DNA of 64,000 bases from the human T2T-CHM13v2.0 reference genome, Homo sapiens: NCBI RefSeq assembly GCF_009914755.1, contig NC_060929.1; one strand, 5' to 3'. The notes beneath the pieces were generated by a model. It saw only the letters and a list, made by a program, of their open reading frames with translations. It was not told the origin of the DNA and did not search any database. Below, piece by piece: positions 13,800 through 45,653 of this stretch (the stretch's first letter is position 1; every line of letters begins with the position of its first letter). The position numbers and the translations under genes are program-made.

Positions 13800-15400
13800 A
13801 TGCTTTCTTCAGGTGCCAGGTCTGGAGTGCTGGTGCACCTATCTCAAAACGCTGTCTCAAAACTCCAACAGGGAGCACCTAACGGTACTGGGTGCAACAT
13901 TGCTAGCACGGAGCAAACAGCAGTCCAGTAACCTGGAACAACAGGCTCTGCGAAACCAAGGACTCTGACAAAGAAAAATTGCCAATTCCAAACATAGCCT
14001 GTTTTAGAGAAATGAATGGCGTTGTCATCGAAAAAACACAGACTCGATTGTGACAGAAATACCGCCACAAACGCAGGTACAGGGACAGCCGACACCGAGA
14101 ACCAAGGGAAGCGGCTGAGAGCTGCGCCTCCACGGAATAACTGCCAGCCGGCACAGTGCGAGTGAGAAACCGGCCACTCCATGAAACGACCAGTACTGCC
14201 ACGGAAAAGAATCCGACGTCGCCAACAAGCGGTGCTACCAGGAGAAACGCCTGCTTTTGAAGAAAACAGCCAGGAACGCGACTGAAAGACACTTGCTCCC
14301 AGGAAGAATTGGCATTTGTTCCAAAACACAGCTGGATAAACCGAGAACCTTCGGAGTGGTTGCACCGAAACGGGGTCACCCAGCACCTCAGCGTCCTGGG
14401 CTCTAGCAAGCCTCACAGAAGCAACCGGCAGTGCTAACACCGAGGAGCACCTAGAGCGGCAAAACTAGCAGTAATGCCATCGACGAAAGGCCAGTTAGGC
14501 CAAAAGAATAGAATATTTAGTTCCGGGAATTACAGGCCAGCGCAAACCAGACAGCATAAAGCTGAGGGTCAGCAAAACAAAAATTAGGAACAATTTTTTT
14601 TTAAAGGGCAAGTTAGCTGAAAAACACACGCACACACAATAAAAACAATACATTTGGGAAGATTCATCAAATGAAAATTCAAAACTAAGCAAAACATGGA
14701 AAAATGGACTCTACAAAGAAGAAAATGCAAACACTTCTAAACAATGTGGTTTCACAGAGGTAATATCGCTGTCAGGCCTATATCAATATCTGCTCGGTCT
14801 CACCAGGACTTCTAACTAAGGGACTGCAGACACTGCTAAACCGCTACTTGCTACTCCTAAAATATCTTCTTCACCTACGTGCCCGGACTTCTATATTTAA
14901 AACTCAGGCATAAGTAAAGCAGGGTAAGTTATTATGAAACCGAAAGTTACTGGGACTAAGGAGTCGCAGGCATGGCTATGCTAGTACTGGTTGCGACCAA
15001 ATATGGACTTGCAAGAGCTAAGAAATCACATTCACAGGGGCACTTAAAATCGAAGCATGCACTTGTTACTCTAAGAAATCCCTAACCCAGGACTCGCTCA
15101 GAATATTTCGAACGCAGAATTAAGCATCTTTATCGCAGGCGAAATAAGCCGATACTTATTCCGCTTAAGTCCGAACTTGCTATGCAGAGAAACCACAATC
15201 AGGGCTACATTCCGAGTGTAGGAGGTTTAAAACTCCCGAAAAGGCAGTCAAAGCAGGCAGGGCCAAGCCGGACCTGCTGTGCCTACCCGAATTGCTAAAC
15301 CCAGTTGTGGTACCATTAAGTAACTGGTAGTTCTCTTATAAGCCAAGCTAAACTGTTCCAAAGAAAAAGACGCTGGAAACACTGCTAGCCCTGAGACCCA
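13800..15400 (+). repeat. CpG-rich degenerate repeat module 1
   Basis: Recurrent ggtgct...gagaaac and gacttgc...ctaagaaatc units; homologous to 17.2-18.9 kb and 41.6-43.2 kb. Confidence 0.7.
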
Positions 15401-15419
15401 TGAATAAGTAGTCTTTTCA

Positions 15420-15707
15420 ATTATTTATTTATTTTGAGACAGGCTCTCGCTCTGCTGGAGGGCGTTGGTGCTATCCGGCTCACCGCAGCCTCGACCTCCT
15501 GAGCTCAAGCAACCCGCCCACCCCAGCCTCCGGAGCAGCTGGGACTACAGGTGCACACCATCTCACAGGGCTAACTTTTGCATTTTTTGTAGACACAGGC
15601 CTCACCCTGTCGCCCAGGCTTTTCTCAAACTCCTGAGCTCAAGCAATCCGCATGCCTCCGCTGCTGAAAGTGCTGGGATTACTGCCGTGAGCCACGCTGC
15701 CCCGCCA
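15420..15707 (-). mobile_element. Diverged Alu (AluJ-like) that retains many CpGs
   Basis: Alu consensus; TSD gaataagta. Confidence 0.88.
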
Positions 15708-41578: not shown

Positions 41579-42786
41579 ATATCAAGTGTCACACTGAATA
41601 GCGGTGTGTCCTGTGGCAAACTTTATTTTTGGCGCAGTTAAGGCATTGCTACTAAGAAACTCGTCTCTGAGAAATATCGGTGGTTGGAAGGTTGTAGGGT
41701 GCTTCCACCGAGAAAGCGCCTACCCAGTGAAATACGCCTGTGACAGAAAAACCGAGGCCAAGCCCTGCCAGCAGTCTTGCCCAATCACGGTGCTGAGACA
41801 GTGAGACAGCCAGCCCGGGGAAAGTAGCCGTGCTAGGACACAGGAAGCGATACCACAAAGAACATGTGAGTCTTGTGAACAAGGAATGTTGTTTTGTTCA
41901 GCGCTACCAAGAGCGCGGCAACCGAGAAAACACGGAGTCGCCCCTAGTGGCGAAAGTGCGGATGCGAAACCGCTGGCTCGGCGTAAGAGCAGAGCCGCGG
42001 AAGAGAACCCTAGCGGCGGGGAACTAGCTCGCCTTCAGTGCTCACGGGAGAAGGCAAGTTAGAAAGAACCTGAGACGTGACACTGAAAATCAGTAGAAGA
42101 AATACGCCACATTTATTCTACCGGGGAAGACAGTGGGTAAGAAAAAAATACCGTAACATTTAAATTAAAAAATAATTAAAAATTTAAAAGCAAATAGAAA
42201 TTAAAACAAAATACACTGATAACCTCGCTGCCAGAACAAGATACACCAAAAAAAAATTTTTTTTTTGATTATACAAAACATACAAAGCATCCTACAAACA
42301 GAAAGAAATTGCAAACAGGGTCGAATGGTGAGATCCTACCATTATATTTGTCAGCACTAAACCCGTGCCTCTTGCGCCTATCCGAAGTTTCCTCGGATTA
42401 AGAAGAAACAGCCATGGTTAAACCGGTATTTGCGACACCAACAATTATCTGTAGCCGACGTACCCCAACTTCTACATGAGTGAAAAATCGCCAGCATAGC
42501 CAGGGCGAGACTATTGCGAATTCTAACTTGGTATGATTTAAAAATTCCAGACACTGCTAAATTTTTTTAAATTGCATTCTTCAGTACCTAGATTAATACA
42601 GGAGTTATAAACCGCACGCATGGCTATAATGGGGGCTCCTATTACGGAACAGGAATTTGCTACTACTAAAATTATGTAGGCATGGTTAAAGCCAGAATTG
42701 TTACAACCAGAAATCGCAAACTGGAATAACTCTCAACTTGCTACGGTAAGAAATAACTAAACTCTGACTTGGTCAGACTAAGAAAT

Positions 42787-43040
42787 CAGGAGTTTGAGAC
42801 CAGCCCAGGCAACATGGCGAAATCCTGTCTCTAGGAAGGATACAAAAAATTACCCGGGCGTGGTGGCGCGTGCCTGTGGTCCCAGCTACCCCGGAGGCTG
42901 GGGTGGGAGGATCGCTTCAGCCCGGGAGGCGGAGGTTGCAGTGAGCCGAGATCGCGGCACTGCACTCCAGCCTGGGCGACAGAGCCGGACCCCGTATCAA
43001 GAAAGAAAGAGAAAAGAAAAAGAACCAAAGAAAAAGAAAA
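42787..43040 (+). mobile_element. 5'-truncated, CpG-rich Alu
   Basis: Alu linker and right arm with GAAAA tail. Confidence 0.9.
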
Positions 43041-45653
43041 GTCACCATCGCACGGTTAAGTCTGCCTTGCTACAGCTAAACAGTGACTTCCTAGGACCAA
43101 GAAATCGCAGCCAGGGCTAGACCGATGCCCTAAATCGGGACTTGCTTAGGCTGAGAAATCACATTTTGGCTAGTTATTTGGACAAGAGGTAGAAATAGCG
43201 GGCACCGCGAAATCGAAACTTGCTAGGACCAAGAAGCCAACGACGGGCGAAACCGCAGGGGCCTGCGATAGAGACGCCAGCGGCGCCGCCGGGGGACTGG
43301 GTTCAGGAGGCCGAGCAGGAACCCGTGCGTCGGCGCTCGCGGCGCTGTGAAGAGACGGCGTCCGCGCAGCTCCTCTGCCTCTGGCTCGGAGGAGCGGCGG
43401 GCTCCCCCGCCCAGCGCCGGCGTCGCCCGGGAACCCCAGACTCTGCGCAACTGGCTGCGATTCCAAATCCCTCAGATCGGCTACCAGAGCGCTGCCGCCA
43501 CCGAGAAAATGGAGGCACCGAGGAACAAGATGTGCCGCGACCAAGAGAACTCGGCTTGGCGAAATGGCGGTGCCGGGACCCTAAGAGTGACGCCAGCCGG
43601 AGGAGTTCCCAAGGACAACATCCATTTTGGCGGAACCAACGGTGTTGTCACGCAGAAAATGTCGACCCTCGGAAAAGAGAGGTTCTGCGACCGAGAAATT
43701 CGGTGCAACAAGTGCTGTGACAGAAAACCCCCCGCTCGGCGCTGCTGGCGAAAGAGCCAACAAAACGCTGGGTGCTGCCACCGTGACACCGACTTTAGGA
43801 CCCCGGCCTCGGATGGAGAAAGGAGGGTACGGAGCCACCACATAACTTCCTAATGTCTTCAAATAGCGAAAGTGCTAGCCGGAAACTGCCGGCTGGGTTT
43901 ACCTATTGGTGCTCGTGTGGGACTAGCAGATTCGAGAAACCAGCGGGACTGGAACCTAGTACACTTCGGCAGTTGAGAAATGACTTACCAGGACAAATAC
44001 TGCTTCTGGCTCGATGGTGCTGCCCATGAACATCCGCCGGCTCTGAGAAACGAGCTGCACTGTCAGTGAGAAACCGTGGGCACTGAGAAACGAGCGGACT
44101 GCAACTGATAACTGCCCACCCAGTGCCACTACGACAAAGTGCTGCTGGCACTACTCCCACCCTCCGTCCTCAAATCAGTCCCCTCCCGCCTAAGAAGACC
44201 TTTATTTTTCCTAGCGAAGTCATACTGAGGGCCCCATCAACCGATCCCTTGCGATGCGCATGGGAAAAGGAGGCAGTATAGGGACCGAGAATCGGGCGGA
44301 TTGGGCTGGCCCTGGTAACAAAAGCCATCCGGGTCGCCAACCGTCTTCCACTGCAAGAAACAAACCTTCCAGTGGCTGGGCTCCGCCCTTCTCCTTGGTC
44401 AGAGCCCTCCAGGCTCCTAAGGGCGAAGCCGACACCTCATCCCTTTGGAACTTGAAGTTCTCAGTCCAAGACCTCCGTGGAGAGTGAAAGACTCAATGCC
44501 TCCTGACCGAGGCTTCAGGCCTGCCCCGGCAGCTAGGTACCTCTCCAGGGGATGGAACTCTGTGGGAACTGCTATTTAATTCTGATGGTTAACTCTGTCA
44601 GATGGCCTTGATATATGGGAATAATCGTTGCAGGAGGGTAGGGGAAATAAGAATCGCAAGACTCTAGCACAGGACGTGTGGATTGATGGTGAGGCCTTTG
44701 CTCCCTCTCCCCTTGAAATCCTCAAAGGGCAGTTCCCGATTTCTATCACCTTTGAAATTCATCCCTGATGTCTTCTCCATCTTTGGGAAGTGCAATGCAA
44801 TTTCAAGCTCTTGAATCTTCCCTCTCCCACATTTGTCAAATATACTGACGCTACAAACTCCTTTCTTACAGGAAACCTGAAACTGCCATTGAGCAGAAGG
44901 AAAACATCCCTTTCCAGAACCTTTCTCGTTTTTCTAAAAATCTGCACTTTTGGAAGTGATCCCCCAAAGAGACCTCCAGACTCTACCATGAGTGTCTCCA
45001 GCTGAACTCATCGTGTCTAATCCTCACCCTAGCTTATCCTGTTCAAATCATTTCCATCTTTTTCTGGATGAACCTGGGCGGATGTCAGACCAGAGAAGAG
45101 CACAGAATGTACCAGAGAGGTAAGAAGACCCATTTTGGGCTCTCACTTCTCACCCACTCCCAAGATGGTCACCTCCAGTCTTCCCCCCTATACCTTACCC
45201 TTTCTTCAGCTAGCCAAAACCTGCCCTGGTACTTGAGGCTTCTTCAGTTGCCTTCTTTTGCAGGCAGTAGAATAAAGGAAAGAGGGCAGTGTCAATAGAA
45301 GAAAAGTTACAGCCACTTTATCTAATTGAAGATACTGTGCAGAGCCTTTGAAAAAACAAAATATCTCACCCACCATTCCTCTCTCCGTTTCCACCCTAGC
45401 TTCCTATTTTAGCAAAAATGGTGGGATCAGCACCTCTGGAGGGAAGGGGTCACTCTTCCAGGTTAGGAATGTGGACAGGAGTTATGGAGCTTACTTCCCT
45501 AAAGGAGGAGGCATTCTAGTTCCGGCATTCAGATTCTGTCTGATTCCAATATGGTGTTTGTGTGGGGTGGTCAGAGAAAGGGCAAGTCGGCAACTGTATA
45601 TTCCTCAGCAAGAGACTATAAGACATTTGCATTTGGAAAATCAGGAGAGATGC

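What the first reader, a model, noticed from the sequence alone, without database searches (positions are those of the whole stretch)
13800..45420. Higher-order modular duplication of the CpG domain
17200-22420 and 40600-45420 are colinear paralogs (44/45 identity at 18862/43201; 15/15 at 19208/43560), each with private Alu or LTR insertions. 13800-15400 is a third partial module (ctacaaagaagaaa at 14711/18111; acactgctaaa near 14830/18477/42551). The anchor TGTGACAGMAA recurs at 14049, 17592, 19367, 41739 and 43716, implying an inner ~1.8-2 kb unit of GC block / A-rich spacer / AT-type block. ANXA2R sits antisense between two modules. Near-perfect islands within diverged sequence suggest constraint or gene conversion.
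Basis: seen in the sequence. Interest (0 to 1): 0.7.

Follow-up and report, generated by a model that had tools for sequence, protein, structure and literature searches.

The report
Leftover promoters of decayed RESIST cluster
The repeated CpG-rich blocks are local copies of the promoter region of the antiviral gene ANXA2R (RESIST); they are likely left over from a gene cluster that has decayed to one intact copy, were likely patched by old gene conversion, and keep an interferon-response motif that may still be active.

Summary
The duplication is real. Modules A (16960-22420) and B (40550-45650) are colinear paralogs and C (13830-15420) is an older partial copy. Four more copies lie within 75 kb upstream and none were found elsewhere in the genome. 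Two upstream copies are still joined to the start of an ANXA2R coding sequence, so the module is the promoter/5' region of the RESIST gene unit; ten broken RESIST-like coding relics surround the one intact gene. B is a mosaic: a tract of about 740 bp (43083-43822) is half as diverged from A (K2P 0.21) as its flanks (0.42-0.46), while a control pair is flat, which points to old gene conversion. The 44/45 island holds the window's only strict ISRE motifs, but is only a modest outlier; the 15/15 island is chance. There is no regular 1.8-2 kb inner unit, only degenerate ~200-bp blocks. All ten listed transcript starts of ANXA2R and its neighbouring lncRNAs fall inside these copies. Side result: an unlisted, intact 238-codon ORF of a mammal-wide, possibly RESIST-related family lies 52 kb upstream of the window. 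I found no description of this cluster in the papers searched.

The parts
16960..22420 (+). Module A: promoter/5' region of ANXA2R (gene on - strand); CpG o/e 0.93, A 30%/T 18% on + strand; holds both ANXA2R starts (17181, 20108) and the ANXA2R-AS1 start (18995)
   Evidence: supplied gene table
40550..45650 (+). Module B: paralog of A with no coding sequence left; holds the starts of LOC100132356, LOC100506639 and ANXA2R-OT1
   Evidence: no ANXA2R coding remnant found to its left; supplied gene table
13830..15420 (+). Module C: oldest, partial copy (A-rich spacer, AT block, start of ISRE block); no other genome match by blastn
16327..16908 (-). ANXA2R/RESIST coding sequence, 193 aa, the only intact RESIST copy found
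16978..17006 (-). TATA-like box (16978-16985) and GC box (17001-17006) just upstream of the coding sequence, largely kept in P0, P1, P2 (motif names recalled)
17239..17247 (.). GAS motif TTCCGGGAA, 58 bp upstream of the short ANXA2R start; a GAS-type site is kept in P2, broken in P0 and P1
   Evidence: ANXA2R is a GAS gene in PMC10287828
18868..18881 (+). ISRE consensus in A, inside the 44/45 island (18862-18906)
43207..43220 (+). ISRE consensus in B, identical to A's, inside the island (43201-43245)
18736..19470 (+). Inferred old gene-conversion tract, A side
43083..43822 (+). Inferred old gene-conversion tract, B side
14521..14529 (.). GAS motif in module C (an IRF-type GAAANNGAAA site lies at 14936)
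20317..21155 (-). Old Alu split by an AT microsatellite; same insertion in copy P0, absent from B
40860..41575 (+). Dispersed LTR-type repeat in B, shared with copy B'; carries a younger Alu (41224-41523) private to B
42787..43021 (+). 5'-truncated Alu in B, shared with B', just left of the conversion tract
10796..11258 (+). RESIST pseudogene relic (58% DNA identity to ANXA2R, in-frame stops), inverted relative to ANXA2R, with a different upstream region
7318..7436 (+). Short RESIST 5' relic
29896..38250 (+). Broken copy of a second ORF family of the locus, in two pieces (29896-30546, 37602-38250) split by the L1/LTR block at about 30550-37505

Best explanation
The modules are local copies of the CpG-rich promoter and 5' region of the interferon-induced gene ANXA2R/RESIST, likely left by repeated duplication of the whole gene unit and later loss of most coding sequences, and likely partly re-homogenised by old gene conversion. 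Shown: seven copies in about 120 kb and none elsewhere; two still joined to the start of a RESIST coding sequence; ten coding relics nearby; discordant divergence along the module; transcript starts inside five of seven copies; slowed CpG decay. Inferred history: an old layer of duplication (K2P 0.41-0.49) gave three lineages (A/P0, P1/P2, B/B'); a later wave (K2P 0.16-0.25, after the oldest Alus and before the younger ones) copied whole blocks and converted tracts that end where A carries an extra ~450-bp block (about 19470). Inferred function: the copies stay unmethylated, bidirectional CpG promoters; A drives RESIST through its GAS site (STAT1 binding at this promoter is published), and the ISRE kept in A and B likely lets IRF/ISGF3 add to induction of RESIST's long isoform and of B's lncRNAs, or lets B act as a 24-kb-distant second element for RESIST (about 40% likely; untested).
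For: Own-genome DNA searches with five module pieces gave 6, 7, 4, 1 and 3 matches, all at chr5 43.20-43.32 Mb; the same tool found 54 matches from 294 candidates, all but two off the locus, for B's LTR-type insert. P1 and P2 run continuously from the module into RESIST codons 1-33 and 1-64. ANXA2R coding DNA hits 8 other places and the protein 2 more in 334 kb. K2P A-B: 0.46 left, 0.215 and 0.214 in the core, 0.42 right; A-P0: 0.198, 0.196, 0.177, 0.185. Fisher tests core vs flanks: P about 1e-10 for A-B, 0.68 and 0.95 for A-P0. Change-point gain 23.0 against a maximum of 11.1 in 20 shuffles. P1 and P2 switch from 0.17-0.27 to 0.45-0.47 from A, with change points at 19471 and 19422. Alus inside modules keep 48% of CpG sites against 25% outside (12 vs 150 elements, P=5e-4). 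Strict ISRE: 2 in the window (0.16 expected), 3 in 234 kb, all at the homologous site of A, B, P0, with the IRF core also kept in P1. RESIST is interferon-induced and expanded in mouse and horseshoe bats.
Against: The island is not a strong outlier once the converted background is allowed for, and the ten IRF-core bases staying invariant in four copies has P only about 0.02. The AT block is built of GAAAC..ACTTGCTA-like words, so an ISRE can arise there without selection (0.01-0.06 expected in module A). PMC10287828 files ANXA2R as a GAS-only gene, not ISRE or composite, in Huh7.5 cells, and four lncRNA identifiers of the locus were absent from its 11 supplements held as text. No orthologous DNA from other mammals, and no chromatin data, could be examined. 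B has no coding remnant, so its link to a RESIST gene rests on homology with A, P1 and P2. Direction of conversion is unknown.
Confidence: 0.8

Rival explanations
1. On function: the copies other than A are neutral relics. They stay CpG-rich and fire lncRNAs simply because CpG-rich DNA recruits promoter chromatin, and the ISRE in B is a passenger of the conversion tract.
For: Island not significant over local background; terminal branches of A and B in the core (0.12/0.09 and 0.11/0.14) are no shorter than P0's (0.09/0.10); ANXA2R classed GAS-only.
Against: IRF core invariant in 4 of 4 copies that have the region; A and B differ at 2 of 55 bases there while P0 and P1 carry private changes; CpG protection over tens of millions of years in all copies.
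Confidence: 0.45
2. The high A-B identity of the core reflects purifying selection or a low mutation rate in an unmethylated CpG island since the old duplication, with no conversion.
For: The core is the most GC- and CpG-rich part and shows the least CpG decay (TG/CA 7-9% against 15-17% to its left).
Against: A-P0 divergence is flat across all segments; transversions alone show the same drop for A-B, 0.09 against 0.15-0.18; boundaries are sharp and the right one is shared with P1 and P2.
Confidence: 0.12
3. The module descends from an old transposable element (for example an L1-type 5' region with internal monomers) that was captured as the RESIST promoter and then duplicated locally.
For: A-rich + strand like the nearby L1; degenerate internal ~200-bp repeats.
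Against: No off-locus match for five module pieces; no match to the L1 pieces of the region in the masked self-comparisons. The search is blind to very old, CpG-decayed repeats.
Confidence: 0.07
4. The core encodes a small protein on the + strand (ORFs 19169-19606, 145 aa, and 43509-43853, 114 aa, which start at the same ATG).
For: Homologous ATG in A, B, P0 and P1; A and B stay in frame for about 70 codons.
Against: A and B frames then diverge by a one-base indel; P0 is frameshifted and P1 has a stop at codon 10 (read from the alignment); many amino-acid changes; no Pfam match. No formal dN/dS and no homologue search was run on these ORFs.
Confidence: 0.03

Closest known systems
Mouse Resist1/Resist2 (Gm21188/Gm36079) tandem pair (PMC12310523) and the ANXA2R expansion in horseshoe bats (Tian et al. 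2025, seen only as cited in PMC13500052)
   Same: Same gene family (PF15721), duplicated locally, interferon-linked.
   Different: Those are intact gene copies. Human ANXA2R is described as a single gene; here the extra copies survive mostly as promoters and coding relics.
Birth-and-death immune gene clusters with interlocus gene conversion, such as IFN-alpha, IFIT, TRIM5/22 or PYHIN clusters (recalled)
   Same: Local paralogs in both orientations, pseudogenes, mosaic ancestry, lineage-specific copy number.
   Different: Only one RESIST gene is intact, and the best-preserved part of the dead copies is the 3-5 kb CpG-rich promoter, which now starts annotated lncRNAs.
ISRE/GAS promoters of interferon-stimulated genes (PMC10287828)
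   Same: GAS next to the ANXA2R start; ISRE consensus upstream.
   Different: The ISRE is 1.7 kb upstream of the short start and 1.2 kb inside the long isoform's start; its use is untested and the paper classes ANXA2R as GAS-only.
Catalogued human segmental duplications (at least 1 kb, at least 90% identity; definition recalled)
   Same: Multi-kilobase local copies that carry shared Alus.
   Different: Identity is 60-87%, below the catalogue threshold, which may be why the cluster is not listed.

Membership tests
Dispersed repeat / transposable element | Many copies across chromosomes | tested here: not met
   0 off-locus matches for five module pieces; positive control found
Dispersed repeat / transposable element | Match to a Dfam/RepBase consensus | not testable with these tools
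   No repeat library held
Higher-order tandem repeat (satellite-type) | Head-to-tail monomers of regular length | tested here: not met
   TRF finds no long-period array in the modules (periods up to 500); no clear k-mer periodicity; halves align no better than shuffles
Segmental duplication (catalogue definition) | At least 1 kb at 90% identity or more | tested here: not met
   60-87%
Birth-and-death multigene cluster | Several local paralogs, intact and broken, in one locus | tested here: met
   1 intact gene, 10 relics, 7 promoter modules
Birth-and-death multigene cluster | Copy number differs between lineages | tested here: met
   Two distinct proteins each from Diceros and Glossophaga; mouse pair; bat expansion
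Interlocus gene conversion | Tract with closer ancestry than both flanks, sharp ends, not explained by local rate | tested here: met
Interlocus gene conversion | Paralogs group within a species or clade in the tract when orthologs are included | not testable with these tools
   No other mammalian genome DNA held
Interferon-stimulated promoter | ISRE or GAS consensus near a transcript start | tested here: met
   GAS count alone is weak (2 found, 7 of 100 shuffles reach 2)
Interferon-stimulated promoter | Factor binding and induction | tested here: inconclusive
   STAT1 recruitment at the ANXA2R promoter is published (peak position not seen); nothing found for either ISRE or for B
CpG island promoter | CpG o/e above 0.6 with protection from CpG decay, and transcript starts | tested here: met
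   o/e 0.72-0.94 in 7 of 7 copies; Alu CpG retention; starts in 5 of 7 copies (supplied table). GC is only 47-52%.
Structured non-coding RNA family | Rfam match | tested here: not met
   0 matches at gathering thresholds
ANXA2R family (PF15721), for the second ORF family | Pfam match or clear profile homology | tested here: inconclusive
   No Pfam match; profile-profile E 6e-4, probability 29%, 84 columns colinear from the start Met

The most novel reading that the evidence does not exclude
The human RESIST locus is a hidden antiviral gene cluster that is still partly alive: module B and its upstream sisters are interferon-responsive promoters kept as distal control elements for RESIST, and the unlisted intact 238-codon ORF at chr5:43,223,874-43,224,590 is a real, unannotated human protein of a mammal-wide RESIST-related family.
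Probability: 0.3. Interest if true: 0.8.

Novelty: new member of a known kind. Interest (0 to 1): 0.56.

Why it matters
RESIST stabilises interferon-beta mRNA by inhibiting CCR4-NOT, and PMC12310523 leaves open what controls the human gene. This map names the candidate elements (GAS at 17239, ISRE at 18868 and its twin at 43207, seven CpG-rich copies comparable in kind to the ~10-kb region that SP140 binds in mouse), so the question becomes directly testable. It reinterprets several much-used biomarker lncRNAs as output of duplicated RESIST promoters, shows that primate ancestors likely had more RESIST copies, as bats and mice do, and points to a possibly missed human protein-coding gene in the same locus.

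Tried and rejected
Rfam scan: nothing. Regular inner unit or minisatellite period: not supported (one peak at 40 bp in the GC blocks, not followed up). Recent conversion or strong constraint as the cause of the 44/45 island: no site with A=B and P0=P1 differing inside it, and not significant over background. Protein-coding reading of the core ORFs: rejected. A coding remnant left of B, B' or C: none; the one score above shuffles was A-rich sequence. The recalled idea that mouse Tcstv genes belong to this cluster: no paper holds both names, the Tcstv paper passages name no homologue, and DUF1438 (accession and link to Tcstv recalled) gives no hit at the locus; not supported, not excluded. Atlas look-alikes for the second ORF family gave EME1 C-terminal clusters at 0.90 or below with no alignment support; treated as noise. 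A bacterial promoter scan was run on 200 bases and is irrelevant to human DNA. The glioma paper's ANXA2R enhancer could not be placed from the passages read. A YY1-like word in the 15/15 island and a TALE-type TGACAG in the anchor are recalled motifs, untested.
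Full report
Coordinates are window places; negative values lie upstream (genome place = 43,276,000 + value). Copy names: A, B, C in the window; P0 (-73949 to -68515, +), P1 (-27978 to -33024, -), P2 (-2841 to -7140, -), B' (-16276 to -14043, +).

1. Observation. An Alu-masked self-comparison gives five colinear A-B blocks at 60, 60, 77, 63 and 67% identity, and the stated islands and anchors are exact. The anchor is far above chance (5 found, 0.11 expected) and marks module copies only (8 of 8 occurrences in 334 kb). 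C is a true but distant partial copy. The left 500 bases of the claimed alignment are not shown to be colinear. A profile of the second GC block finds weaker copies at 17358, 20040, 40725, 41616 and 43932 and in every upstream copy except C, so inner repetition exists, but as degenerate ~200-bp blocks; whole 1.8-kb halves do not align above shuffles and no period stands out except one 40-bp peak.

2. What the module is. Searching the whole genome with five pieces returned matches only at chr5 43.20-43.32 Mb, while B's LTR-type insert returned 54 matches from 294 candidates (40 scored), nearly all on other loci. That search cannot see very old repeats. Mapping on 234 kb, then 334 kb, of the locus gave four more copies. 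P1 and P2 continue without a break into the ANXA2R coding sequence (codons 1-33 with a stop; codons 1-64 then unrelated DNA). P0 stops 58 bases short of the ATG, and C plus the gene are missing from its block. The module is therefore the upstream part of the RESIST gene unit. ANXA2R coding DNA matches 8 further places (-80746, -79103, -58636, -28099, -23321, -3087, 7318, 10796) and the protein 2 more (-99004, 73488); the family profile scores 3 places over its cut-off genome-wide, all here. Six of the relics share a different upstream region that is also local. All 10 transcript starts that the supplied table lists for ANXA2R and the lncRNAs between -73418 and 44341 fall in A (3), B (3), P1 (2), P0 (1) and P2 (1); C and B' have none. 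CpG o/e is 0.72-0.94 at only 47-52% GC in 7 of 7 copies, and Alus inside them kept about twice as many CpGs as those outside (0.48 vs 0.25; 12 vs 150 elements of 100-340 bp with at least 6 scored sites), which implies long germline hypomethylation.

3. History. Distances fall in two layers. Right flank: A-P0 0.185 and P1-P2 0.16, but 0.41-0.47 between the three lineages. Left AT block: A, P0, P1, P2 within 0.17-0.22, B and B' 0.46-0.49 away. Core: every pair 0.18-0.27. B's core is thus too close to A for its flanks (Fisher P 5e-11 and 2e-10), whereas A-P0 is flat (P 0.68, 0.95), and transversions alone show the same. The left change point is 18736/43083; the right end lies at the alignment break near 19470/43822, where P1 and P2 also switch (19471, 19422) and where A and P0 carry about 450 extra bases. 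I infer conversion tracts that stopped at this heterology; direction is unknown. Dating: Alus 13-22% diverged at non-CpG sites are shared by A and P0 (same target-site duplication), while Alus 5-9% diverged are private to P0, P1, B' and B. With recalled ages for AluJ and AluS this puts the 0.2 layer at very roughly 40-65 million years. The older layer likely reaches early placental mammals; RESIST proteins are found in elephant and armadillo (59 hits).

4. Islands and function. The 44/45 island contains the only strict ISRE matches in the window; the third and last in 234 kb is the same site in P0, and P1 keeps the IRF core. Against the converted background the island is modest (P 0.09 ungapped, 0.007 with gaps; four-copy P 0.38) and the 15/15 island is chance. 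A GAS lies 58 bases upstream of the short ANXA2R start and another in C (weak as a count). PMC10287828 (passages, supplement 1 whole, term search of 11 supplements) reports STAT1 recruitment at the ANXA2R promoter and files it as GAS-only, which counts against a needed ISRE in that cell line. PMC12310523 (passages and Discussion; preprint passages) shows that RESIST binds CCR4-NOT and stabilises IFNB1 mRNA, calls the human gene single, reports a tandem pair in mouse under a ~10-kb SP140-bound region, and leaves human regulation open. My committed reading: A is the working GAS-driven promoter; B and the upstream copies are orphaned CpG promoters that fire lncRNAs; an added role for the ISREs is about 40% likely.

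5. A second family. RESIST proteins also weakly hit four related ORFs upstream. One is intact: 238 codons at -52126 to -51410, in a gap between the genes of the supplied table. It has 30 homologues and 42 by profile, named ones from titi monkey, tamarin, elephant seal, fruit bat, reindeer and sheep, with an almost invariant block around NREQAWAWALDNF; many homologues end near 150 residues. It has no Pfam match and only weak profile similarity to RESIST (E 6e-4, probability 29%). An identical protein is held from an unnamed source (P0060), which shows neither expression nor translation. A broken copy lies between A and B, split by the L1/LTR block; two more broken copies lie off the locus.

6. 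Comparison and novelty. It works like a birth-and-death immune cluster with conversion and meets those features; it fails the tests for dispersed repeat, higher-order satellite and catalogued segmental duplication. Expansion of ANXA2R is known in mouse and horseshoe bats (PMC13500052, passages; Tian et al. 2025 not read). I found no account of the human cluster, its promoter copies or the second family in the listings of ten searches; the library lacks most subscription papers. Other papers: 10.1101/867861 and PMC4728397, passages only.

7. Verdict. Real feature, explained as relic promoters of a decayed RESIST cluster with old conversion (confidence 0.8). New member of a known kind; interest 0.56, carried by the testable control elements and the unlisted ORF.

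Noticed in passing
L014:7874-8590 + (window -52126 to -51410): Intact 238-codon ORF, absent from the supplied gene table, of an unnamed family conserved across placental mammals and weakly similar to RESIST; possible unannotated human gene.
   Followed up: partly
window -129129, -123524, -119260, -111726, -107660, 29896-38250 and 79995-79422; also C5:180.37 Mb and C2:141.71 Mb: Broken copies of the same second family; the two off-locus copies may be retrocopies, which would imply germline expression.
   Followed up: partly
L010:993-1469 + (window -99007): 158-codon ORF with about 30% identity to RESIST over 145 residues, in a CpG-rich patch; no Pfam match.
   Followed up: partly
window -3031 to about -2815 (+), inside LOC105374748: Open frame of about 72 codons whose first 64 are 80% identical to RESIST; it lacks the C-terminal part that RESIST needs.
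   Followed up: no
P0089 and P0081: Sheep and fruit-bat gene models join the second family to RESIST-like sequence, which suggests that the two genes are neighbours in those genomes too.
   Followed up: no
window 6845-7432 and 10330-10882: A second, local-only upstream region with a TATA-like word precedes the inverted RESIST relics; RefSeq enhancers (10575-11652) cover one of them.
   Followed up: partly
window 25330-27481: Matches, inverted, the upstream region of the second-family copies (65-70%), so more of the A-B interval is cluster-derived.
   Followed up: no
window -68949 to -68700: 250-bp internal inversion in copy P0 next to an Alu fragment.
   Followed up: no
window -14043 to -13554: B' ends in a truncated Alu and continues with sequence like 13093-13361, as expected from Alu-Alu recombination.
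   Followed up: no
window 8092-9244 and 20455-21047: Two very long AT-rich microsatellites (1.15 kb and 0.6 kb), each inside an Alu.
   Followed up: no
window 35033-36016 and 53922-54914: Inverted pair of ~1-kb elements at 89% identity, one inserted in the L1; a partial third copy at 63440-63871. Observed only.
   Followed up: no
window 16909-18212: The long ANXA2R isoform carries about 1.3 kb of 5' leader from this exon, with 12 upstream ATGs, so it may be translated poorly compared with the short isoform.
   Followed up: no
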